From Sulfolobales archaeon (GTDB lineage Archaea > Thermoproteota > Thermoprotei_A > Sulfolobales > AG1), in the NCBI GenBank assembly GCA_038867615.1, contig JAWBYA010000017.1, forward strand, positions 1 through 11,110: a DNA stretch of 11,110 nucleotides. Reading direction: 5' to 3'. The notes below the pieces were generated by a model. That model made no database searches, was not told the DNA's origin, and worked only from the letters and a program-made list of their open reading frames with translations. Numbering within the stretch: position 1 is the stretch's first letter; each line of letters opens with the position of its first letter. Position numbers and translations under genes: made by a program. Below are positions 33-9,772 of the stretch, one piece after another.

Positions 33-91
33 TCTGACCTCCTCCCCGCTCTAAGGGAACCCTCGCCCTTCAGGGCGGGGAGGAGGTCAGA
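33..91. mobile_element. Two IS200/IS605-family (tnpB-type) right-end remnants fused in inverted orientation (MITE-like relic)
   Basis: GGAACCCTCGCCCTTCAGGGCGGGGAGGAGGTCAG (56-90) has the hairpin + TCAG terminus typical of crenarchaeal IS605/IS1341 right ends. Bases 33-49 (TCTGACCTCCTCCCCGC) are a perfect 17-bp inverted copy of 75-91. There is no tnpA or tnpB in between. Confidence 0.8.
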
Positions 92-467
92 GCGGGAGAA
101 GCCCTGAGGAGCTCATTGAGCTGCTGAAGAGGCATGGGATCAGGGTTCTCGTGGATGTGAGACACGGAAAAAGAGCTAGAAAGGGTTTTTCACCCGCAGA
201 TCTTATGAAGAGGCTGGAGGAGCATAGCATAGTCTATACCTCCATGCCATTCCTAGGTGTTCCGAGGATTATCAGAGAGCCCTACATAAATGGAAGGATA
301 TCTTTCGACTGCTTTAAACAATGGTATCTCTGGTGGGTCGAAAAGAACAGAGGAGAGTGGGAAGATGCAAGCCAAGGGGAGAGCAGAAGCATTACTGCCA
401 CAGAGATATACTGGCTGACTACCTAGTAGAAAGGGGGTTCTTTGAAGATAGATTCGATATTGAGTAG
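91..467 (+). pseudogene. DUF488-family protein, 5'-truncated and frameshifted
   Basis: The frame from 91 reads SGRSPEELIELLKRHGIRVLVDVR...GFS...LG, the DUF488 N-terminal signature. The C-terminal motif YCHRDILADYL...* is in a different frame (381-467). The start is replaced by the IS end. Confidence 0.8.
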
Positions 468-640
468 CAGAACCTTAGGCAAATATTGATCTCTAGATCA
501 TGTTGCGTTATCCGCTATGGACTTATGATTAGAGATTATAATCATAAGCAGGGCTTAGGCAACAGAGTTGCTTAAGGGGACTTCCGCAACCGATGAAAGA
601 GATCCTGGAGGCTATGAAGTCTAGTTAATTAATATTGTTC

Positions 641-1615
641 TCAGATCTTATCACATCTGAGGGTTTTCATCATGAGTAGCGTTGTATCAGATCCGAATTT
701 CTTTCCACGGGCTAACCTGTTATAGTCATACCTTAATATTGTACACCATATTTTCTCTGCATTCTCCACCATTTTCTCCCTAACGTAACGGGACATAGAT
801 GCTATGGTCTCTGCTATATCCACTCCACCCTGTCCTTCTATTACTTGAAGGCAGTCCACCCATAGATACATAAGATTATCTACCTTCCTACTCCTTGTTC
901 TAGAAGTATAGTGATTAGTCATATCAAATCCATATCTAATAAGATCCCAAGGATTCTTAACATTCTCTAGCACTATGATCTCGATAGCTTTAAAGGTGCT
1001 GATCTCACTCTCAAAACCTATCCTTATGAAGTCTCTGAGGCTATTCATAACATCTTTAACAGCTTTGTCGAAGCCGTCTTCATATCCACTAAGCTTTCTC
1101 TGCCTTATGCACTCATCGATCTCATTATTTCTCCTTTCGATACTCTCTATAGTGTATTCTGAATATTCTTCATTATCCTTATCATCAATAGAGGATCTTT
1201 GAGATCCTATGTTATTCTCGGTGATTGCTATGCACTCATTATCCTCATTCTTATACTTTTTCGACCATTGGCTTAAGATCTGCCCCAAAACTATATTTTC
1301 AATCTTATCCAAGTAATGGTGTAGCACATAGTAACAGAGACCCTTCTCTCCATACTTGTTTAGCACATCCCTAGCCTGTGAGAACAATGTATCACAACTC
1401 ACCCTAGCTTTATCATGCATTTTCTTATCATCAATGTCAGAGCTAACTGTAAAGGGAGAAAGATAAAAGCGTATGATATCCTTTTTTATAGGGTTATAGG
1501 TGATCGACCCACTAGGAGTTATATTAGAATGTTCGTCTATAGTTTTATCGATCTCTCTATTATAATACTTACAGATCAGCCTACCAATAGCCATATGAGC
1601 ACCATGAGAAGGCAT
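641..1615 (-). CDS. Hypothetical protein (324 aa), possibly a metal-dependent hydrolase (Zn-dependent phospholipase C/YdjM-like His motifs)
   Basis: Long ORF with a GGGG RBS-like element upstream. It has N-terminal MPSHxxH, a middle D...HD and YVLHHYLD, an arrangement reminiscent of helical Zn-hydrolases. The family assignment is tentative. Confidence 0.65.
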   Translation of the reverse strand: MPSHGAHMAIGRLICKYYNREIDKTIDEHSNITPSGSITYNPIKKDIIRFYLSPFTVSSDIDDKKMHDKARVSCDTLFSQARDVLNKYGEKGLCYYVLHHYLDKIENIVLGQILSQWSKKYKNEDNECIAITENNIGSQRSSIDDKDNEEYSEYTIESIERRNNEIDECIRQRKLSGYEDGFDKAVKDVMNSLRDFIRIGFESEISTFKAIEIIVLENVKNPWDLIRYGFDMTNHYTSRTRSRKVDNLMYLWVDCLQVIEGQGGVDIAETIASMSRYVREKMVENAEKIWCTILRYDYNRLARGKKFGSDTTLLMMKTLRCDKI

Positions 1616-1638
1616 AATATCAACCCCAAGTACTTAGT

Positions 1639-1678
1639 GTGAGCTACCCCGCCCTTAAGGACGGGGTTTTCGCTTCCC
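1639..1678 (-). mobile_element. Isolated IS200/IS605-family right-end remnant
   Basis: The minus strand reads GGGAAGCGAAAACCCCGTCCTTAAGGGCGGGGTAGCTCAC. This is an imperfect hairpin (1646-1667) followed by a TAGCTCAC terminus, typical of tnpB-element right ends. Confidence 0.75.
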
Positions 1679-2199
1679 TAACCCCCCTTATTTATAACCA
1701 TGTATATGTTAATCCTATCTTCAATACTATATATTACGAATGGCTTCTCCTTAGTTCCTGGCATTCCTGGAGAGCCTGGGGGCATTCCTGGGAGCGATAT
1801 CCCCTTGATATCTGGTCTCTCGTTAAGGAGCTTCTTAATAGCCTCCGCAGGCACATGCCCAACCACTATATAGCCCTCTACAATTGATACGTGGCATGAT
1901 CTCAGCTCCATCGGGATACCAAGGCGATCCATAACAGAATCTATATCATCTACAATAGCTATCTCAACCCTAGCACCCAAGTTGGAGAGATATCTAGCAT
2001 ATTGTGAGCAACATTCACATAGCCTGGGCTTTATAAGAGATATTTCGACTCCATCATGCCTAATCCTAGCATCGCTGGATATGCTGGATATCGAGATATG
2101 GAGAGCTATGGATATAATAGCAGCAGCTATAACTGGTATTAGCAATGAATAGAGAAGCCTTCTAGAGGTTCTCCTCCCCACCCTCCTTGTTCTCTTCAT
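1678..2199 (-). CDS. DUF411-family (CopG-like) exported metal-binding protein
   Basis: Motifs CECC, LxSCHVS, GYxVxGHVPAEAI and LPGMPxGSPGM match DUF411. The N-terminus is basic followed by a hydrophobic signal/anchor. GGTGG RBS upstream. Confidence 0.9.
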   Translation of the reverse strand: MKRTRRVGRRTSRRLLYSLLIPVIAAAIISIALHISISSISSDARIRHDGVEISLIKPRLCECCSQYARYLSNLGARVEIAIVDDIDSVMDRLGIPMELRSCHVSIVEGYIVVGHVPAEAIKKLLNERPDIKGISLPGMPPGSPGMPGTKEKPFVIYSIEDRINIYMVINKGG

Positions 2200-2214
2200 A
2201 ATTCCACCATAGCC

Positions 2215-3570
2215 CTAGGTATCTAGTATTGAGTGGGGATCTCCATATATATCGTATTCTCTCCACTCATCCTCTGTCCTTCTCTTTCTCCTCGACTTCC
2301 TAGTTCTTCTCTTCAGCTCCTCCAAATACTCCTCATCCACATCCTCCCAGCCCTCCTCCTCAACCATGCTCTTCACCATGCTCTGAGCCTTCCTCCTCAA
2401 AATCTCCTCAAGCTCTGGATCAGTCTCCAACCCCCTCTCCTCCGTCTGCCCCCCACCACCTTCTCTAAGGACTTTCACCAGGTTTATTGAGATCCCTCTG
2501 AATAACTCCCTATAGTAGTTATTCACCATAGGGTCTAGCTGTGCAATAGAGTTGATTAGCTGTTTAGTGCTTGTTGGCTCTCCGTCTGGCTTTACTTGGT
2601 ACTCCTTATCATCAACAACTATGTAGATCTCCTCTGGTATGTATCTCTGTATCGCCTTGATAGCTGTCTCGATATCCTCTCCATGTTTGAGGGTGCTATC
2701 TATAAATGCACAGGCTATCTTCTTGATCTTCTCGTAAGAAGTAGCCTCTATGGCTATGTTTGGCATTACAGGGAATATTTCTTTCACAGCCCGCCTCAGA
2801 TCCTGTGAAGATCTAAGCCTCGGATCGCTAGCAATATCAACCCAGCTAGGTAGATACTCTATATCATCAACCTCTCCAAAGAATATGTCATATATACCTC
2901 TATTCAAGATATACCTTATGTTGGTCAGCATTCTACCCTTCGCATGGTATTTCATCAGCTGTCTAGGGATATAGACTGCTATTGGCTTTATCGGTGTTGG
3001 TATATGTGTTCTGCAATCAACTATATACTCTGTTAATGCCATCATCTCAGCTATTGGAAGCTCTATCTCCTGCCCATCTATCTTTGCGGTTATCTCTCCC
3101 CTTTCGTAGTAGTTGATTACATTGTTGAGATCCATTATCAGCTTATTCCCATGTTTAAACACCCAGCCAAGATCTACAGCATCATCTGACACAACAGAAT
3201 AGAATGATCTCATAGCTAGGCATGTGCCCTCGAAATACGACCCCCACCAGGGGTAGCACCTCTCAAGGGCTTTGAGTGTCTCCTCATCCAATACTCCTCC
3301 CTTGTGTGTGATGAATATATGTATCTCCCCACCCCAGCCATTAACCCTATACATCCAGTTTGCTACATAGCCTGTTATGCCATCTACTCCATAGTCGAAT
3401 CTGTGTGGGGCGAAGCTATATAGGCTTCTGTTGAGCCACTTTGAAACGAGATAGGCTACTAGCGAGTCTCTAAGATCTGAGAGGTCTGAATTGGGATCCC
3501 CCGAAGCAACTACTGGGAGAGCCCTTCTAAGCAAATCCAGCCAAGCGGAGCTCCTAACCAAGCCACACAT
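2215..3570 (-). CDS. Hypothetical protein (451 aa) with charged low-complexity C-terminal tail
   Basis: Long ORF, 27 bp downstream of the 1171-aa gene and 15 bp upstream of DUF411 (operon-like spacing). No recognisable family motif. Confidence 0.85.
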   Translation of the reverse strand: MCGLVRSSAWLDLLRRALPVVASGDPNSDLSDLRDSLVAYLVSKWLNRSLYSFAPHRFDYGVDGITGYVANWMYRVNGWGGEIHIFITHKGGVLDEETLKALERCYPWWGSYFEGTCLAMRSFYSVVSDDAVDLGWVFKHGNKLIMDLNNVINYYERGEITAKIDGQEIELPIAEMMALTEYIVDCRTHIPTPIKPIAVYIPRQLMKYHAKGRMLTNIRYILNRGIYDIFFGEVDDIEYLPSWVDIASDPRLRSSQDLRRAVKEIFPVMPNIAIEATSYEKIKKIACAFIDSTLKHGEDIETAIKAIQRYIPEEIYIVVDDKEYQVKPDGEPTSTKQLINSIAQLDPMVNNYYRELFRGISINLVKVLREGGGGQTEERGLETDPELEEILRRKAQSMVKSMVEEEGWEDVDEEYLEELKRRTRKSRRKRRTEDEWREYDIYGDPHSILDT

Positions 3571-3597
3571 CCAGTAAATATAGCAAAATCCGCATAT

Positions 3598-6500
3598 TCA
3601 GCCTCTTCTTTTTCTCTGTTCTCTCTCTTCCTGCTCTTCGCTCTTCTCCCTCTCCTCAGCCTCTCTCTGCTTCTCGAGCAGCATATCCGCTTTGGTTTCA
3701 TATCTAGGTTTATCACGCTTTGTGAGCTCTTCCTGTGCCAGAGAGGCAAGGCGGTTGATTGAAAGCTCTTCTATCTCTCTCTCCATCTCCCGCCTAGCCT
3801 TCCTCTCCATCTCCTTCTCGATCTTTGCTAGCTCTTTCCTTAGCTTCCTCCTCTCCTCGCTATCCTTTATTTCCTCCAGTATCTCTCTATGTATCTTTTT
3901 CAGGGTTTCTATGCTCCTCAGGTCGAGCCTCTCCTTGTGTCTGATCTTTTCAAGCATCTCCTCAGGTGCTAGTTGCTGTCCCTTTCTCACAAGCTCAAGC
4001 TCAAGCTCTCTTCTAAACCATATCTCTTTTAGCGATTTATCGCCGTATTTCTTCAATAGGTTTATGAGCTTCTTATGTGGCATATTCATCAGCCTTATGA
4101 ACTTCGAGTGTACTGCCTTTACAAACTCCCTGGCTGTGGCGTAGATCTTGGCATCTATCCTCCTCTTAATACGCTCATCGATCTTCTTCTCCCACTCATC
4201 GCTAGAAGCCCTGTGGAACTCGTGTCTCTCCCCTATGAAGTCGTAGTTGCCTAGTATAGCTCCCTTGGTCTTTATGGCTAGATATGCTAGCCTCTCCCTA
4301 GCCCTTCTGGTTGTCTTGTCCCAATATACATTGCGGTGCTGTAGGAGGAAGTAGAATGGCGACACACCTAGCAGGGCATCTATCTTTGTCTCTAGGAACA
4401 TGAAGCTCCTGAACCTCCTGCTCATCTTGCTACCAATCCTCGGGTCGAATTCCAGCATTATGTAGCCCTCCCTTGCTGCCTGCTTACGCTCTGGTTCGTA
4501 GATGGTGATGATCCGTGTCCTGGTATCCTTCCCAACCGCTTTGCTTGCCACTCTATACTCTAAGATCTTATCCAGAGCCTTTCCAATCACATATGCGTAG
4601 AGGTTCTTCAGTACTGGCTTATCTGAGGGTGAGTATCTATCGAACTCGTCTAGGAACTTGCCTATTTCGCCTAGCAATATATCCTCTTCAAATGGTGCCA
4701 TGTGTGCTTTCTTCATAGCCTCTTTAATGGTTTCATCATCGGGTAGCTTCAGATCTCCCTTCTCAACAGCCTTCTCCACAATCTTCATAGTCAGCAATGC
4801 AGATACCTCGAACACCTTTTGCCAGTCGAAGTCTGGGTTCACCATGAAGACCCTCACAGGTATATCCCTGGGAGGTCTCTCGTATTTCTCGAAGAACCTC
4901 CCTAGGTTTGAGTAGCTGGTCAGCCCTATGGGCATGCCATCGGCTTTTCTCTCCTCTGTTAGTAGTGGTATGTAGTTGAGGAATCTCTTTCTAAAGTCCT
5001 CCTTATAGTCTGGCATATCTGGCTCGATCCATAGCGGCTCTGGGACACGCTTCGACGTAGTCCTACTCCACGGAGGCTCCATCATCTCCCGCATCCCATA
5101 GAAGATCCTATCTCCGAAGACCTCAGCCATGATCGGGTCTGTCCAGAAGGCTGGGTCTCGGAGATGCATCATAATAACCTCTCTCCGAACTTTTGGAACC
5201 TCACCTAGGCTGGTTATGCCTTCTGGCACTATATCCCTTATCTCCCAATTAACCTCCTCCAAGCATTCCTTAGGTGTTCTCTCTGAGAGGCATTCATCAA
5301 ATTTTATAAGGGTTGGGTATCTCCATTTAAAGCGACGATACCCTAGTGCTCCGAGCTGAGGAAGCGATCTCATATTTAGCGTTTTGAATGCATATATGGT
5401 CTGCAGATCTATGTTCACCTGATCAACCCCTAGCACGTGGAAGAACCATCCCTTCCTAGGTCTTATACGTATTTTGTTGCCCTCTTTATCATATGTTGTC
5501 TCTCCAGGTGTGTACATATATCTGTTTATATATGGGTGGAATGCGTGGATTATTATCTTCGATGCTAGGGCGTAGAGATATTTGATCCATGCCCTTGCCC
5601 TCATCCTAGACGGCTTCATCCTCCTCCTCACTTCAGCCTCGATCATCTCTCTGAGCTCTTTCTCCCTCTTCTTCAGCATCCTCTCAAGCTGCATCTCATC
5701 CCACTTTGTTACAACAGCCCCTGTTCTGTATCTCCTCATGTTCTCCCTCTTGATCACCCTCAGCTCACGCTCCCTGAGGATCTCGATCTCGTGCTTTACC
5801 ATTGCATCTACAAGCCTCTCTATATATTTATCGTTATCCATCTTAGAGAAGTGCCTCCAGATCCTCCTATATATCAGCGTCCTAGCTCTGGAGACATCTG
5901 GTATTTTAGAGCCCGCCCATCTCCTCCTAATCCTATACAAGCTTCTACGCCAATATTCTGGGTTCTCCAACTCCTTAGCGTATTCATCTAGTGGGAGCAT
6001 GTTGAAGGGTTTGAACATCTTTAGATAGTCTATTGGGTCGAACTCCCCAAGATACTTATTATAGTCATCCTCGATGTCATCCACATATATTCCGTAGCTC
6101 TCTATTATCTTCCTCATCTTGTCAAGCGCCTCTGCTAGGCGGTAATCACGGTTCTCATCCTTAACCCTTTCCTCGATCCACTCCATCTCCTTCAACAAAT
6201 CACTAACTCCTTTCCTTGGATCTATTCTCCTCCTGCGCAGAGCTGTTGCTGCATCTACAAGTGGTTCGAGATGTCTTAATACCCTTCTATGCTCCATTAC
6301 GAAGTATCTCACGAAGCTTGCTAGGTACTGAACCTTTCTTATATAGAATATCTTTCTAGCCTCTCTGCTCCAGTATCTCCTACCCCTCTTCCTATCCAGG
6401 CTATACATCCCCATGAACTCCCTCACAGCCTTCTCTGGCAGGTACTCAAGTATTCTCCACCAGCCCTTCTGGCTTCTCAGCATGAACATCGCTATGATGG

Positions 6501-7113
6501 CTACGTGGACATATCTTCTAAGCAGTCTCCTAAGCTTATCCCCATCGCTCAGTATCCTCGACAGCTCTCTGACAAGCTCTGCATCCCCTATCTCTACATA
6601 GCATCTCTCATACTCCCCCTCATGCTCTGGCGGCTCCTGGAATTCTGGGTCGTAGCCTGTCTTCGGCTTCCACCTCCGCCTGGTTTTATAATATTTTATT
6701 ATAATAGGTATTCTGCCCCTCTCAGCCCTATACTCGACCCCCTCTGGCAGTAGTTTTTTGAAGTCCTCCGACTCTAGGTATTCCCCTAGCTCTATGTATC
6801 CCTCAACAGCCTGTGCTATGTCTTTAAGCCCCAGCTCTGTTGGCTTGGGGAGCTTCTCTGGGAGCCTTAGCTTGATGATCCTCTCTATCTTTATGGATGG
6901 TGTGAGTCTCACGGTCTTCTCAGCCCCGTCTTCTCTGTATCTCAGCTCCTGCGGCTCTAGACATGCCCATATTTTTATTGATGATGCGTTTGGAGATACG
7001 ATGTATCGTGGGACTTTGTCTATCTTCTTCTTTGCTATGTGGAATCCGTGTTTTCTATCTATATACAGGGCTTCTCTATTCCCAGCCCTAGCTCTCCTAC
7101 CGCTTGCAAGCAC
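3598..7113 (-). CDS. Large R/K/E-rich hypothetical protein (1171 aa) with C-terminal coiled coil; weak RuvC-like motif resemblance
   Basis: 3.5-kb open frame with codon usage like its neighbours. The start is uncertain: the frame stays open upstream to about 7170, and AGGGGG is followed by in-frame CTG codons near 7160. No family confidently recognised. Confidence 0.9.
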   Translation of the reverse strand: MLASGRRARAGNREALYIDRKHGFHIAKKKIDKVPRYIVSPNASSIKIWACLEPQELRYREDGAEKTVRLTPSIKIERIIKLRLPEKLPKPTELGLKDIAQAVEGYIELGEYLESEDFKKLLPEGVEYRAERGRIPIIIKYYKTRRRWKPKTGYDPEFQEPPEHEGEYERCYVEIGDAELVRELSRILSDGDKLRRLLRRYVHVAIIAMFMLRSQKGWWRILEYLPEKAVREFMGMYSLDRKRGRRYWSREARKIFYIRKVQYLASFVRYFVMEHRRVLRHLEPLVDAATALRRRRIDPRKGVSDLLKEMEWIEERVKDENRDYRLAEALDKMRKIIESYGIYVDDIEDDYNKYLGEFDPIDYLKMFKPFNMLPLDEYAKELENPEYWRRSLYRIRRRWAGSKIPDVSRARTLIYRRIWRHFSKMDNDKYIERLVDAMVKHEIEILRERELRVIKRENMRRYRTGAVVTKWDEMQLERMLKKREKELREMIEAEVRRRMKPSRMRARAWIKYLYALASKIIIHAFHPYINRYMYTPGETTYDKEGNKIRIRPRKGWFFHVLGVDQVNIDLQTIYAFKTLNMRSLPQLGALGYRRFKWRYPTLIKFDECLSERTPKECLEEVNWEIRDIVPEGITSLGEVPKVRREVIMMHLRDPAFWTDPIMAEVFGDRIFYGMREMMEPPWSRTTSKRVPEPLWIEPDMPDYKEDFRKRFLNYIPLLTEERKADGMPIGLTSYSNLGRFFEKYERPPRDIPVRVFMVNPDFDWQKVFEVSALLTMKIVEKAVEKGDLKLPDDETIKEAMKKAHMAPFEEDILLGEIGKFLDEFDRYSPSDKPVLKNLYAYVIGKALDKILEYRVASKAVGKDTRTRIITIYEPERKQAAREGYIMLEFDPRIGSKMSRRFRSFMFLETKIDALLGVSPFYFLLQHRNVYWDKTTRRARERLAYLAIKTKGAILGNYDFIGERHEFHRASSDEWEKKIDERIKRRIDAKIYATAREFVKAVHSKFIRLMNMPHKKLINLLKKYGDKSLKEIWFRRELELELVRKGQQLAPEEMLEKIRHKERLDLRSIETLKKIHREILEEIKDSEERRKLRKELAKIEKEMERKARREMEREIEELSINRLASLAQEELTKRDKPRYETKADMLLEKQREAEEREKSEEQEEREQRKRRG

Positions 7114-7198
7114 CAGGGATGCTAGGAATGCTAGCTCTGCTCTGCCGCGCAGCAGCAGCCCCCCTAATAATATATGCTAAAAAACATGCCCAAACCCT

Positions 7199-8068
7199 GA
7201 TCAAAATTAGATCTGATCAGATCTAGATCGAGAACCGACCCCCCGATCCCGAGTGCTTTCCACTCCGCTGCTCCTTTGCAAAGTGCAGTATGAACATATA
7301 TGACTCCGAAAGATCGCCTAGATCTTTAAGACCCCATAGATCGTGGATCAAAAAAGATCCGAGAAAAAGATCTGTGAAAGATCCAGATCCAGATGATCCA
7401 GATTTTTACAGAATATTATTCTTGCCCTCTCCTAGATTTGTTGAATATTATCTATTGAATCCCCAGATATTTCTATAGACTTTGTTTAGATGCCCATAGA
7501 TATGTGTTTTTTATTCATCATAGTCTATATCTTTTGGGGTATATATATCACAAGCCCATACTTTCTATGTATAACTCTGTATATTTTTAGCTGTGTCTAT
7601 TTCGATCTCTTGATCTTCGGGATCTTGTTCCTCGGGATCTTCTTTTTCTCTTCTGCATTTCTTTCGATGCTTTCCATGTTTAACTGATTGTTTTTTATCA
7701 CAGCGATCTTTGCTAGTAGCCTTATATGTTTTTCATGTGTTTTGGTATTACCTTTTATAAGTTTTTCGCCTGATCTTTTTTGATCTGTCTTCTCTGGATC
7801 TTTTCTGGATCTTTGGGGGTTTTCTAGGTGTGTTTGATCTCCTCCAGATCTTTTTTTCTCCGAGGATCTTCATTTTCTTTTTGATCTGGTCTGTTTTTGT
7901 TTTCTTTTTCGCTCGGGATCTTCTGATCGGATCTTTGGATCTTTTAAATGCCAGATCGATCTGTTTTATAGCACACCTGTTTTTCCACGCTTAACCGAGT
8001 GGTTTTAGCCTTGGCTAAATTTTTGATCCCATGAACTTTTTTGCTTTTGATCTGCCTTCTCTGGGATC
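7199..8068. repeat. GATC-dense low-complexity non-coding region with polarity switch
   Basis: About 37 GATC by hand count in 870 bp. The left cluster (7199-7398) is mostly A-rich AGATC, the right cluster (7604-8068) mostly T-rich GATCT(T), and the AT-rich core 7399-7603 has no GATC. Confidence 0.8.
7208..7225. promoter_or_regulatory. Perfect 18-bp palindrome, candidate operator upstream of the 1171-aa gene
   Basis: TAGATCTGATCAGATCTA is self-complementary and lies about 25-40 bp upstream of an AT-rich TATA-like stretch (7165-7184). Confidence 0.4.
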
Positions 8069-8334
8069 TTTTTCAACCTCGATAATCCCTGGCTTTGGAG
8101 TTCGGTGTATATATAAAAATATGTAGCACTCAAATCATAGTCCCAGATAAAAAAAGATCCATCCAGCCCTTGCGGCATTTCGTTCATGCATAAAACGAAC
8201 CCGAATCAAGGGGTGGATGTATATCGAGGGATATGCGGGAGAGATTTGAGTGCTACACATTGACCGCAGATCTTTTACGAGTAAATAGATCCCCAGATCG
8301 AGATGTCCCAGAGAAGAAACCCCTTTGCAAAAAA
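8037..8334. ncRNA. Nested quasi-palindrome; candidate structured ncRNA or cruciform DNA site
   Basis: Concentric inverted repeats centred at about 8189: 8179-8184/8194-8199, 8160-8172/8207-8219 (12/13), 8122-8136/8243-8257 (15/15), 8078-8083/8297-8302, 8056-8066/8306-8316 (11/11) and 8037-8044/8327-8334. Expression is not demonstrated. Confidence 0.5.
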
Positions 8335-8507
8335 CAACTAGAATAGTAATCAAGGGATATTGGCTAGGAAATGCCCCGCACAACCCCCTCGATCGGCGGG
8401 CACCAGAAAAACCACTAATATATTATATATAGGTATATTGCCCCGTCCAGCCAGCCAACACAAGCCCATAGCTAGAGGTTTAAAACCCTACCCAGCCTTA
8501 ATGCATC

Positions 8508-8645
8508 AAAAACATTCTATAGAAGATCTCAAGCCCAGGGTTTTTGATTTTTGTTTTTGTATATACCTTTCAATTCTATAGCAGATCATTTGTTTTTGTA
8601 TATACAGATATAGCCCAGATTCTTTCAATTCTATAGCAGATCATT
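8508..8645 (-). CRISPR. Mini CRISPR-like array: two identical 24-bp repeats plus one degenerate repeat
   Basis: AATGATCTGCTATAGAATTGAAAG (minus strand) occurs at 8622-8645 and 8567-8590, with a degenerate copy at 8508-8531. Spacers are 31 and 35 bp. The repeat ends in the canonical ATTGAAAG handle and is 20/24 identical to the Sulfolobus islandicus repeat GCTAATCTACTATAGAATTGAAAG as I recall it. Confidence 0.75.
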
Positions 8646-8686
8646 ATTTTCCCTGGGCTCTCATCCACACATATAATATTGCTAAA

Positions 8687-8699
8687 GGGGTATATATAT
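8687..8699 (-). promoter_or_regulatory. TATA-like element upstream of the mini-array (possible leader promoter)
   Basis: ATATATATACCCC on the minus strand, about 40 bp before the first repeat. The same 13-mer occurs at 7536-7548. Confidence 0.35.
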
Positions 8700-8711
8700 T
8701 TGAGTAATAGA

Positions 8712-9545
8712 TCATATATATATGAGCCACCTATCGGGCTCCCTCAGCATTTTATCTCCAGTCTCTTCAAGTGCTTTAACAGCATGCCCTGTGATGAGTT
8801 CTAGAAAATCTCTAGCCTCCCTCTCATCGCTAAAGTGAGGAACTAACACGGCTACGCTGGGCAGTAGAAATGTGCGCTTAACACCATATGTGCGCTCTAA
8901 AATGCTTCTTATAATATCTACTCCACCTGTATCTATATGTCTAGCCGATTCAAACCACCTAGGCACGTTCTCCAGCAAGATAGCTCCAGAGATGACCATG
9001 AATACAAGGTCTATCCTCTTGGCACCAGTAGCATTTATAACCCTTCTGCCATTCTCTCCAGCTCTCTCAATCAGGATACTCTTAGCACTTAGATCTGGGA
9101 GGGGGAATCTAAGATCTTCGGGCATGGACTCGACATTGCTCTTCAAAACCCCATAGTCATGCCCGATAACCAGGAAAGGCAGGTCTCCCAGCAGGGCATC
9201 GAATCTCTTTCTGCTACCCAGTATCTTTTCTATCTCATCGAGGTTGAAGCCAAGCTTAGCAAGATAAACAGTATATGCCGATGCACTTGAATTAACAAAC
9301 AACCTTGATAACTCTCTAGGCTTCTCGATGAACTGCGTGGCTGGGTAGAGAGTGAGGTTGATGATTGGAGGTCTAAAGATCTTTGAGAAGCTGTAGAAGC
9401 TGTTGATCGCTTCACCAAGTCTCCAAGCATCAATGGGTTCGATCCTCGGCTTGTAGATCTTGCTGAGCTCATCCTCATCCCAGCTAAACACAGTTATGGG
9501 TATCACAGCACCTCCAACATGGACATTATCACCCATATAACCCAC
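8712..9545 (-). CDS. Hypothetical protein (277 aa) ending in HbYX-like LIYI
   Basis: Long ORF. The start may be the ATG at 9536, which follows a GGGTG RBS. The C-terminal ~65 aa are paralogous to the adjacent 70-aa ORF. Confidence 0.85.
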   Translation of the reverse strand: MGYMGDNVHVGGAVIPITVFSWDEDELSKIYKPRIEPIDAWRLGEAINSFYSFSKIFRPPIINLTLYPATQFIEKPRELSRLFVNSSASAYTVYLAKLGFNLDEIEKILGSRKRFDALLGDLPFLVIGHDYGVLKSNVESMPEDLRFPLPDLSAKSILIERAGENGRRVINATGAKRIDLVFMVISGAILLENVPRWFESARHIDTGGVDIIRSILERTYGVKRTFLLPSVAVLVPHFSDEREARDFLELITGHAVKALEETGDKMLREPDRWLIYI

Positions 9546-9559
9546 CCTAGGCGCACATA

Positions 9560-9772
9560 CTAGATATACATGAGATGGTTATCCCTGCCCATCCTCTTCT
9601 GGTTATCGTATGCGATCTCAATGTTCTCTATAACTTTCTTCATAATATCCTCCAAGAATTTCTTAGCCTCCTTCTCATCACGATATGGGGGGACTGGCTC
9701 TAAGAGTCTAGTTATCACATCTGAGACTAGGAGACCGTACCTTGCCCTTAGCAAGCCCTGCTCCATAATCAC
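9560..9772 (-). CDS. Small hypothetical protein (68-70 aa) ending in HbYX-like LMYI
   Basis: Overlaps the stop codon of the upstream gene. GGAGG RBS precedes the ATG at 9766. Clear homology to the C-terminus of the 277-aa protein supports coding status. Confidence 0.8.
   Translation of the reverse strand: MIMEQGLLRARYGLLVSDVITRLLEPVPPYRDEKEAKKFLEDIMKKVIENIEIAYDNQKRMGRDNHLMYI

What the first reader, a model, noticed from the sequence alone, without database searches (positions are those of the whole stretch)
8508..8645. Stand-alone mini-CRISPR with Sulfolobales-type repeat and no cas genes in the window
Seen: two identical 24-mers ending ATTGAAAG and a third copy that has lost the GAAAG end. 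Known: mobile-element mini-arrays, RNA anti-CRISPRs (Racrs) and CreA-like regulatory RNAs use host Cas6/Cascade. Inference: these two short crRNA-like RNAs may be decoys or transcriptional regulators rather than immune memory.
Basis: partly seen in the sequence, partly recalled or inferred. Interest (0 to 1): 0.75.

Follow-up and report, generated by a model that had tools for sequence, protein, structure and literature searches.

The report
Conserved crRNA-like gene beside orphan cassette
A tiny CRISPR-like unit (one or two repeats, an inherited guide and a decayed third repeat) lies at the edge of an unknown mobile gene pair in a hot-spring archaeon whose genome carries matching CRISPR arrays and cas genes, and it looks like a fixed guide-RNA gene for decoy or control duties, not immune memory.

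Summary
On the minus strand there are two identical 24-nt repeats (8645..8622 and 8590..8567), spacers of 31 and 35 nt, and a third copy (8531..8508) whose ATTGAAAG end is replaced by GTTTTT.

The window is a whole 11.1-kb contig of a 2.2-Mb hot-spring archaeal assembly. That assembly holds a 122-repeat array whose repeat is 21-22/24 identical to the mini-array's, plus two type I-A cas modules on other contigs.

The unit is not the eroded end of a longer array. Three related loci keep the same unit: a second species of the genus and two metagenome contigs. All three have one repeat region, a homologous guide and the same degenerate repeat. Only the 5' repeat is rearranged or swapped for the host's second repeat type.

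It has no host-type leader. I found no protospacer and no seed-type target nearby.

It marks the border of a 6.3-kb cassette: a GATC-dense 1.3-kb non-coding stretch and two orphan genes. The cassette is absent at this locus in the sister species, and a foreign CRISPR array abuts it at a PAM-like site.

Best reading (0.5): a non-adaptive crRNA-like RNA gene that uses host Cas6 and Cascade, acting as decoy or regulator. Transcription, processing and effect are inferred.

The parts
8622..8645 (-). Full repeat R1, AATGATCTGCTATAGAATTGAAAG
   Evidence: It is 22/24 identical to the 7 trailer-end repeats of the C1 array and 21/24 identical to that array's other 115 repeats.
8591..8621 (-). Guide-like spacer 1 (31 nt)
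   Evidence: Its first 16 nt are homologous to the start of the L012 guide, and its last 15 nt duplicate the start of spacer 2.
8567..8590 (-). Full repeat R2, identical to R1
   Evidence: No second full repeat separated by a guide occurs in L012, L013 or G002; G002 has only a 13-nt partial repeat copy abutting its repeat.
8532..8566 (-). Guide-like spacer 2 (35 nt). Its 3' end, CCTGGGCT, is conserved in all four loci.
   Evidence: four-way alignment.
8508..8531 (-). Degenerate repeat TGAGATCTTCTATAGAATGTTTTT, ending in a run of five T. I infer this run to be the transcript's end.
   Evidence: It is conserved in L012, L013 and G002. The signature is found in 2 of 325 genomes of the order.
8646..8701 (-). 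Upstream region with AT-rich TATA-like boxes (8687-8701 and 8671-8679). I infer a promoter. It is not a host-type leader.
   Evidence: It is conserved in G002 and L012. Its local similarity to the host leader is at chance level: score 16 against a null mean of 17.4. Two host leaders score 329 against each other.
8651..8659 (.). Arm of an inverted repeat (CCCTGGGCT on the plus strand) that pairs with 8532-8540. Together they enclose the array.
   Evidence: A terminal stem is predicted in the window (z -3.45) and in L012 (z -1.58), but not in that form in L013 (z +0.32).
7114..8400 (.). Conserved non-coding region dense in GATC. It is part of the cassette next to the mini-array.
   Evidence: It holds 42 GATC, or 32.6 per kb, against a genome mean of 10.6 per kb. 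It is the second densest region in the genome. It is conserved in L010, L012 and L013, with indels that are not multiples of three.
3598..7113 (-). Orphan 1171-aa gene of the cassette
   Evidence: No match in Pfam, PHROGs or NCBIfam. Five metagenome homologues at 76-89% identity. Only one 50%-identity cluster among 1.84 billion proteins. Mismatches by codon position against L010 are 71/45/120.
2215..3570 (-). Orphan 451-aa gene and end of the cassette. Homology to L010 stops at its stop codon.
   Evidence: A CRISPR array in L011 abuts this gene at the position matching window 2844, where the window has CCC just 5'.
8712..9545 (-). 277-aa gene directly upstream of the mini-array. The pairing is kept in the sister species G002.
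   Evidence: Confident model (pLDDT 87) with no clear fold match.

Best explanation
The locus is a small, self-contained gene for a crRNA-like RNA, not a working immune array. Its parts, in order, are an AT-rich promoter-like box, a full CRISPR repeat, a guide-like segment and a degenerate repeat. In the degenerate repeat the handle-forming end has been replaced by an oligo-T tract. In the window the repeat plus the start of the guide is present twice.

Proposed mechanism. The unit is transcribed from its own promoter and ends at the T tract. The host's Cas6 cuts each full repeat and leaves an 8-nt AUUGAAAG 5' tag. The resulting RNA or RNAs load into the type I-A Cascade encoded on contigs C1 and C11. 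The guide is inherited, not acquired, and has no perfect target, so these complexes do not cleave.

They could then do one of two things. They could tie up Cas proteins, acting as a decoy that protects the neighbouring mobile cassette, which appears to be a CRISPR target elsewhere. Or they could sit on a partly matching site and act as a regulator. I put decoy and regulator about equal.

Shown here: the anatomy, the cognate arrays and cas genes in the same assembly, the retention of the unit with a homologous guide in four loci, and the lack of a host-type leader.

Inferred: transcription, Cas6 cutting, loading into Cascade, and the effect.
For: 1. Cognate system in the same assembly.
- C1:626879-634758 is a 122-repeat array whose repeat is 21-22/24 identical to the mini-array's.
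- Csa3, Csa5, Cas7/Csa2, Cas5a, Cas3', Cas3'' and CsaX lie about 5-12 kb from the array's trailer end; Cas4, Cas1 and Csa1 lie beside the leader.
- A second array with a second type I-A module is on C11.

2. The unit is kept in 4 of 4 loci that cover the position: the window, G002 (a sister species), L012 and L013.
- In all four, GAATTGAAAG stands directly before a homologous guide that ends in CCTGGGCT.
- In all four the same degenerate repeat follows, TGAGATCT....TAGA.TGTTT.

3. The guide diverges by point changes and indels. It is not replaced.

4. The 5' repeat changes while the rest stays. The window has a second repeat. G002 has a 13-nt partial repeat duplication. In L013 it is replaced by the repeat type of the host's C11 array, 22/24 identical to that type (my hand comparison).

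5. There is no host-type leader.

6. The unit stays with the cassette in 3 of 3 loci that reach the cassette's array-side end: window, L012 and L013. The cassette looks mobile and looks like a CRISPR target.
- The 1171-aa protein was found in 1 of 41 related genomes, G000 only.
- The flanks differ among the window, L010, L012 and L013.
- The cassette is absent at the G002 locus.
- The L011 array abuts it at a site with CCC just 5' in the window.

7. The architecture, a repeat then a guide then a degenerate repeat, is that described for CreA and other crRNA-like RNAs. I saw this in the listing abstract of PMC9458426, passages of PMC10120712 and section 5 of 10.1101/2024.12.27.630466.
Against: - No RNA evidence of any kind.
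- Cas6 was detected only below the family cut-off: two candidates at 20.8 bits against a cut-off of 58.65.
- No seed-type target with at least 12 of 15 matches was found in cis in the window, L012, L013 or the G002 locus, apart from the unit itself. Nothing convincing was found in the cas loci.
- The 5' seed of the guide is its least conserved part. A conserved regulatory target would predict the opposite.
- Only four loci exist, 85-91% identical in the flanks, so retention could be inheritance without selection.
- The unit also exists without the cassette in G002. That weakens the reading 'the cassette's own decoy'.
- The genus carries many solitary repeats: 25 in G000 at up to 3 mismatches, including this unit's two, and 23 in G002. 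Repeats may simply spread and decay here.
Confidence: 0.5

Rival explanations
1. It is a working mini-CRISPR array carried by a mobile element. It uses the host's Cas proteins to destroy competing elements, as described for the virus-borne mini-arrays of SPV1 and SPV2.
For: - R1 and R2 are identical, as expected after one acquisition event.
- It has 1-2 spacers and no cas genes, and cognate host arrays exist.
- The neighbouring cassette looks mobile.
- The model itself is established in PMC6858448, of which I saw passages.
Against: - There is no host-like leader, whereas the SPV arrays have one.
- The guides are homologous in four loci instead of differing between relatives.
- The two guides overlap by 15 nt.
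- No protospacer was found in the own genome, in the four related loci, in phage or plasmid records or in viral contigs. The single 17-nt viral hit is a chance match.
- The guides are 31 and 35 nt, against 34-49 nt for the 121 spacers of the C1 array.
Confidence: 0.15
2. It is an inert relic. It would be a scrap of a host array captured by recombination, or a recombination hot spot that marks segment borders, now decaying without function.
For: - Every lineage has a different rearrangement at the 5' repeat.
- Synteny breaks coincide with the unit.
- Solitary repeats are common in the genus.
- No target was found.
Against: - An intact handle-forming repeat end adjoins the guide in 4 of 4 loci despite the rearrangements.
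- The degenerate repeat and the guide's 3' end are conserved in 4 of 4 loci.
- The upstream AT-rich box is kept in 3 of 4 loci.
- In L013 the lost repeat was replaced by another functional-looking repeat type rather than simply decaying.
Confidence: 0.2
3. The repeats serve only as Cas6 cutting sites. They would separate or stabilise the transcripts of the flanking genes (the 277-aa gene upstream, the cassette downstream), with no guide function.
For: - The unit lies on the same strand as all large ORFs, between two gene blocks.
- Solitary repeats in this genome are mostly intergenic. Two of 25 lie in same-strand ORFs, against 55% of random sites. Ten of 25 lie within 200 nt upstream of an ORF start, against 18% of random sites.
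- One chromosomal repeat (C1:429154) sits in what looks like the 5' untranslated part of a small ORF.
Against: - The T tract after the degenerate repeat and the AT-rich box before R1 suggest a separate short unit.
- This reading does not explain the conserved degenerate repeat or the conserved guide 3' end.
Confidence: 0.1

Closest known systems
crRNA-like regulatory RNAs (CreA of CreTA, CreR, crlRNAs of CRISPR-supervised immune systems)
   Same: The layout is the same: a near-perfect repeat, a guide-like segment, and a degenerate second repeat. The guide is inherited. The RNA depends on a type I Cascade encoded elsewhere. It lies beside non-cas genes of unknown function.
   Different: The known ones lie inside or beside cas loci, and their guide partly matches a PAM-flanked site at a nearby promoter (section 5 of 10.1101/2024.12.27.630466; passages of PMC10120712). 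Here the unit is on another contig than the cas genes. No such site was found in cis. The guide's seed is its least conserved part.
RNA anti-CRISPRs and viral crRNA-like RNAs (Racr, Cracr)
   Same: It is a repeat mimic placed just after a promoter-like box, without cas genes, next to a mobile cassette that looks like a CRISPR target. It is multiplied to two units in the window. The repeat type matches, and in L013 switches to, a resident repeat type.
   Different: Racrs were described as solitary repeat units in phages and plasmids of bacteria (PMC10651486, abstract and passages). Cracrs are said to silence cas or toxin promoters (abstract of 10.1101/2024.10.29.618823). Here no virus or plasmid hallmark gene is recognisable. 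The unit also exists without the cassette in G002. No match to cas promoters was found.
Virus-borne mini-CRISPR arrays of Sulfolobales viruses (SPV1, SPV2)
   Same: It has 1-2 spacers, no cas genes, and repeats like those of the host.
   Different: The SPV arrays have host-like leaders. Their spacers differ between relatives and hit the relative's genome (PMC6858448, passages). None of these three features was found here.
Stand-alone CRISPR repeats in archaeal viruses and conjugative plasmids
   Same: These are leaderless repeat copies outside arrays (PMC6858448, passage).
   Different: Here the repeat comes with a conserved guide and a conserved degenerate repeat. It is also one of 25 repeat copies outside the large arrays in the genome.

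Membership tests
Canonical adaptive CRISPR array | Two or more near-identical repeats at regular spacing | tested here: met
   Two identical 24-mers 55 nt apart and a third degenerate copy 59 nt further on.
Canonical adaptive CRISPR array | Leader like that of the resident arrays | tested here: not met
   Local alignment score 16 against a shuffle mean of 17.4 (maximum 25). Two host leaders score 329 against each other.
Canonical adaptive CRISPR array | Spacers unrelated to each other and renewed between relatives | tested here: not met
   The two spacers share 15 nt. The guides of the window, G002, L012 and L013 are homologous.
MGE-borne mini-CRISPR array (SPV type) | Spacer matches a related or competing element | tested here: not met
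   No match beyond 15-16 nt in the own genome. At most 26 of 35 positions, and only to the homologous guide, in related loci. Only chance hits in phage records, plasmid records and viral contigs.
MGE-borne mini-CRISPR array (SPV type) | Carried on a virus or plasmid genome | tested here: inconclusive
   The cassette is patchy, has varying flanks and looks CRISPR-targeted. No hallmark gene was found. The contig ends do not overlap.
crRNA-like regulatory RNA (CreA / CreR / crlRNA) | Repeat, guide, then degenerate repeat, with the repeat cognate to a resident system | tested here: met
crRNA-like regulatory RNA (CreA / CreR / crlRNA) | Guide partly complementary to a PAM-flanked site at a promoter nearby | tested here: not met
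   A seed scan over positions 1-17, skipping 6 and 12, with a threshold of 12 of 15, found only the unit itself in the window, L012, L013 and L025. Part of the window's upstream block lies beyond the contig end.
crRNA-like regulatory RNA (CreA / CreR / crlRNA) | Located within or beside a cas locus | tested here: not met
   The cas genes are on C1 and C11. None is on C17.
RNA anti-CRISPR (Racr / Cracr) | Repeat mimic directly downstream of a promoter and not linked to cas genes | tested here: inconclusive
   The repeat mimic is shown and the lack of cas genes is shown. The promoter is only an AT-rich box read by eye.
RNA anti-CRISPR (Racr / Cracr) | Binds Cas6 or Cas7 and lowers interference | not testable with these tools
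   This needs biochemistry or an interference assay.

The most novel reading that the evidence does not exclude
In this genus CRISPR repeats have become a general RNA tag. G000 carries 25 repeat copies outside its large arrays, this unit's two included. Eleven or twelve of them ride on the 3' end of a 64-copy MITE-like element with its own TATA-like box. The unit studied here would be one member of a genome-wide set of Cas6- and Cascade-dependent RNAs. Its own task would be to control or shield a new kind of mobile two-gene cassette with a GATC-dense origin-like region. That would be an archaeal type I-A counterpart of CRISPR-supervised systems, spread by a transposable element.
Probability: 0.12. 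Interest if true: 0.8.

Novelty: new member of a known kind. Interest (0 to 1): 0.5.

Why it matters
In the papers I read, crRNA-like RNAs that turn CRISPR effectors into regulators or decoys were worked out experimentally in bacterial types I-C, I-E, I-F and V-A; I-B is named only in a listing abstract. For archaeal type I-A I saw only a census figure: about 10% of loci hold mini-arrays (PMC10120712, passage).

This locus offers a compact, conserved type I-A example away from cas genes. Its natural allelic series (repeat doubled, partly duplicated, or swapped for a second repeat type) points to which parts matter. It also flags a 6.3-kb cassette with two proteins that have no relatives among 1.84 billion cluster representatives. 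If the RNA proves to guard or control that cassette, the pair would be a route to a new mobile element or defence system in hot-spring archaea.

Tried and rejected
Protospacer searches.
- Own genome: best exact matches were 15-16 nt.
- The 121 spacers of the C1 array and 16 of the C11 array against the contig and against the related loci: nothing better than 14-15 exact nt, or 18 nt with 2 mismatches.
- Phage and plasmid records: only chance hits, all in bacterial records.
- Viral contigs: four pattern scans gave 0, 0, 0 and 1 hit. The single hit is a 17-nt match in an unrelated terminator-like hairpin.
- Genome collection: 0 hits for the signature.

Seed and PAM scans.
- CCN plus a 14-nt seed with up to 2 mismatches gave 5 hits for spacer 1 and 2 for spacer 2 in the genome. 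My rough hand estimate of the chance expectation is about one per spacer.
- The best is a perfect 12-nt seed with CCC at C2:100139. It lies inside a 573-aa ORF, so I rejected it as chance.
- The cas loci gave nothing with a PAM.
- The chromosomal look-alike unit at C1:429154 also has no target within 5 kb.

Expression. No RNA holder was listed among 23 runs, so expression could not be examined. This says nothing either way.

Read laying. No contig spans the whole array in run X1. A joint from 90 to 8566 in one contig of X3 (22 nt on the shorter side) resembles the cassette-free arrangement of G002, but it is too short to rely on.

Nature of the contig and proteins.
- No terminal overlap of the contig ends.
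- No tRNA in the window or in L010-L013.
- No shared terminal repeat between the two cassette ends; only one 9-mer.
- 1171-aa protein: nothing in Pfam, PHROGs, NCBIfam, phage records, plasmid records, viral contigs, 40 related genomes, the ESM Atlas, or PDB sequences. Its AlphaFold model was unusable (pLDDT 36) and was not searched.
- 451-aa protein: nothing.
- 277-aa protein: good model (pLDDT 87), but Foldseek gave E above 0.1 and the wide search gave a best Z of 4.1. Those rows are generic ferredoxin-like hits, including weak RAMP rows at Z 3.2-3.7. A Cas6-like nature is therefore neither shown nor excluded.

Other negative results.
- Rfam: nothing at the mini-array. The multi-copy element gave only sub-threshold hits.
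- I considered that L013's swapped repeat arrived on a copy of the MITE-like element. It is not supported: nhmmer finds no copy in L013.
- RNA structure: the terminal stem is predicted in the window and in L012. The energy z-score is notable only in the window. Three sequences are too few for covariation.
- Cas10 (TIGR02577) and Pfam Cas6 (PF01881) were not found in the 94%-complete genome.

Limits.
- Supplementary files of PMC10120712 (lists of type I-A mini-arrays) and PMC10651486 (lists of solitary repeat units) were not seen and may hold similar archaeal cases.
- Recalled, not from any call: CCN as the type I-A PAM in Sulfolobales, oligo-T as an archaeal terminator, and the 8-nt tag left by Cas6.

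Full report
**Observation.**
On the minus strand the window carries AATGATCTGCTATAGAATTGAAAG at 8645..8622 and again at 8590..8567. A third copy, TGAGATCTTCTATAGAATGTTTTT, lies at 8531..8508. With up to three mismatches the 24-mer occurs twice in the window, against 0.00 expected, and 0 of 200 shuffles gave a match.

The spacers are 31 and 35 nt. Two details were not in the finding. The last 15 nt of spacer 1 equal the first 15 nt of spacer 2 (family D4). A 9-nt inverted repeat (8532-8540 and 8651-8659) brackets the array.

Contigs from independent public hot-spring runs cover 8401-8652 and 8527-9748 without a difference. The sequence is therefore not an assembly artefact of this genome.

**Where it lies.**
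The window is the whole of contig C17 of a 2.22-Mb, 28-contig assembly that is 94% complete. All large ORFs and the mini-array are on the minus strand. No ORF of the contig matches a cas family.

The same assembly holds a 122-repeat array at C1:626879-634758. Its 24-mer is GAAGATCTACTATAGAATTGAAAG, and seven trailer-end repeats carry G at position 9. The mini-array repeat is therefore 21/24 identical to the main form and 22/24 identical to the trailer form.

- Cas4, Cas1 and Csa1, plus Csx1 and a ring nuclease, lie next to the leader.
- Csa3, Csa5, Cas7/Csa2, Cas5a, Cas3', Cas3'' and CsaX lie about 5-12 kb from the array's trailer end.
- A second array of 17 repeats, of a second repeat type, lies beside a second type I-A module on C11.
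- Cas6 was seen only below the family cut-off, as two candidates at 20.8 bits.

Cas6 remains open.

**Relatives.**
The 1171-aa protein has five metagenome homologues at 76-89% identity. It has no other relative among 1.84 billion cluster representatives. Four metagenome loci were fetched.

- L012 covers the mini-array position. It has one full repeat, a 45-nt guide homologous to the start of the window's spacer 1 and the end of spacer 2, and the same degenerate repeat.
- L013 also covers it. Its repeat is of the C11 type, 22/24 identical to that type by my hand comparison. Then come the last 10 nt of the first repeat type, a homologous 50-nt guide, and the degenerate repeat.
- The sister species G002 has the 277-aa gene and the unit at 89.7% identity to window 9739-8503. 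There the repeat is followed by a 13-nt partial copy of its own end, then a homologous 37-nt guide and the degenerate repeat.

The four-way alignment shows three things kept in all four loci:
- GAATTGAAAG directly before the guide;
- the guide's end, CCTGGGCT;
- the degenerate repeat, TGAGATCT....TAGA.TGTTT.

The upstream AT-rich box is kept in three of the four loci. What varies is the 5' repeat region and the first third of the guide.

The signature occurs in 2 of 325 genomes of the order, G000 and G002. So the unit is not the eroded end of a longer array in relatives. It is a short unit everywhere it is seen.

**Not an adaptive array.**
The 200 nt upstream of R1 are no more similar to the C1 leader than shuffled sequence is (score 16, null mean 17.4, maximum 25). 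The C1 and C27 leaders score 329 against each other. The guides are inherited with point changes and indels, not replaced.

None of the searches below found a convincing protospacer or target.
- Own genome: no match beyond 15-16 nt.
- Related loci: at most 26 of 35 positions, and only to the homologous guide.
- Phage records, plasmid records and viral contigs: only chance hits.
- No host spacer matches the contig.
- A seed scan of the kind used for regulatory crRNA-like RNAs found only the unit itself in the window, L012, L013 and the G002 locus.
- The cas loci gave nothing convincing.

**The neighbourhood.**
Homology among the window, L010, L012 and L013 covers window 2215 to about 8440-8700. 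That stretch contains:
- a 1.3-kb non-coding region with 42 GATC, or 32.6 per kb, against a genome mean of 10.6 per kb; it is the second densest such region in the genome;
- the orphan 1171-aa gene, whose mismatches by codon position (71/45/120 against L010) indicate a real gene;
- an orphan 451-aa gene.

Beyond both ends the four loci differ. L010 stops being homologous exactly at the stop codon of the 451-aa gene. In G002 the unit is followed directly by a multi-copy palindromic element and by DNA like G000 contig C12, with no cassette.

In L011 an 18-repeat array (GATGATCTACTATAGAATTGAAAG, 22/24 identical to the mini-array repeat) abuts the cassette in the middle of the 451-aa gene. The window has CCC just 5' of that point. 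From recall, CCN is the type I-A PAM in Sulfolobales. The simplest reading is therefore that a spacer against the cassette joined the two in the assembly. That would mean the cassette is treated as foreign by some hosts.

The 277-aa gene upstream is itself patchy. It was found in 3 of 21 genomes, one of them a weak match with internal stops. Its homologues sit on contigs up to 108 kb. The unit therefore sits at a border between accessory segments, not clearly on a plasmid or virus.

**Interpretation.**
The anatomy is that of a crRNA-like RNA gene: a promoter-like box, a cognate repeat, an inherited guide, and a degenerate second repeat. Here the degenerate repeat has lost the handle-forming end and gained a T tract. 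This layout is described for CreA, CreR and other crRNA-like RNAs. Repeat mimics without cas genes on mobile elements are described as RNA anti-CRISPRs and viral crRNA-like RNAs.

I therefore read the locus as a non-adaptive guide-RNA gene that uses the host's Cas6 and type I-A Cascade (confidence 0.5). I cannot decide between decoy and regulator.

For a decoy:
- the link with a cassette that looks CRISPR-targeted;
- the doubling of the unit in the window;
- the switch of repeat type in L013;
- the poorly conserved seed.

For a regulator:
- the CreA-like layout;
- the presence of the unit in G002 without the cassette.

Against both: there is no RNA evidence and no target.

The rivals are an immune mini-array (0.15), an inert relic or recombination scar (0.2), and a plain Cas6 processing site for the flanking transcripts (0.1).

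**What is unexplained.**
In the window a 24-nt repeat is flanked on both sides by the same 15-17 nt. It looks like an insertion with a target duplication. It could equally be the ancestral state, from which the single-guide alleles arose by deletion between the direct repeats. The four alleles do not settle the order of events.

**Novelty.**
The kind is known. This is a new member: archaeal type I-A, away from cas genes, at the edge of an orphan cassette, with a natural allelic series. Interest is moderate. It would rise if the RNA is shown to act on the cassette, or if the genus-wide spread of solitary repeats proves functional.

Noticed in passing
G000 C1:535917-536128 (-) and 10 further copies (loci L018-L023 hold six): A MITE-like element of about 205 nt, with a TATA-like box, has 64 nhmmer hits in the genome. 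Eleven of the 64 (a twelfth nearly) run on into a full CRISPR repeat at their 3' end. The others stop just before it. Ten of the repeat-bearing copies built the model. There is no Rfam family for it. Copies also lie at the ends of L010 and of G002 contig C5.
   Followed up: partly
G000 genome-wide; G002 genome-wide: There are many solitary CRISPR repeats outside arrays: 25 in G000 at up to 3 mismatches (including the two of this finding) and 23 scattered matches in G002. In G000 they are mostly intergenic. Two of 25 lie in same-strand ORFs, against 55% of random sites. Ten of 25 lie within 200 nt upstream of an ORF start, against 18% of random sites.
   Followed up: partly
G000 C1:429154 (-): This is a chromosomal unit with the same layout: an AT-rich box, a repeat, 32 nt, then a 14-nt repeat core. 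Here the second repeat core lies inside what reads as a 41-codon ORF starting in the 'spacer'. No target was found within 5 kb.
   Followed up: partly
window 7114-8400; G000 C4:145750-146450: GATC is 2.7 times over-represented genome-wide: 10.6 per kb against 3.9 expected. Two non-coding regions are extreme, one in this window (32.6 per kb) and one on C4 (36 per kb). They may be origins or protein-binding arrays.
   Followed up: partly
window 35-92: A palindromic element (CTGACCTCCTCCCCGC...GCGGGGAGGAGGTCAG) is repeated on contigs C11, C12, C14, C19, C23 and C27, and in L010, L012 and G002. In metagenome contigs the first ~370-nt depth bin, which contains it, has summed depth 250-530 in three of four runs, against about 10-30 in most other bins. 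It gives a weak Rfam HgcC hit of 30.6 bits, below the gathering score of 50.
   Followed up: partly
L011:4360-5498: An 18-repeat CRISPR array with part of a leader is joined directly to the cassette sequence inside the 451-aa gene. This is probably an assembly join through a spacer that targets the cassette.
   Followed up: partly
window 9739/9740: One metagenome run carries 1611 extra bases between 9739 and 9740, a possible insertion element. G002's homology to the window also begins at 9739.
   Followed up: no
window 8118-8136 and 8243-8261: A 19-nt inverted repeat, 95% complementary, with arms 106 nt apart, lies in the conserved non-coding region. The AGCACTCAAAT part is conserved in all related loci.
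   Followed up: no
L012:4572-5768 (-): In L012 the gene next to the mini-array is a PAPS-reductase-domain protein (Pfam PF01507, E 7e-16), in place of the window's 277-aa gene.
   Followed up: no
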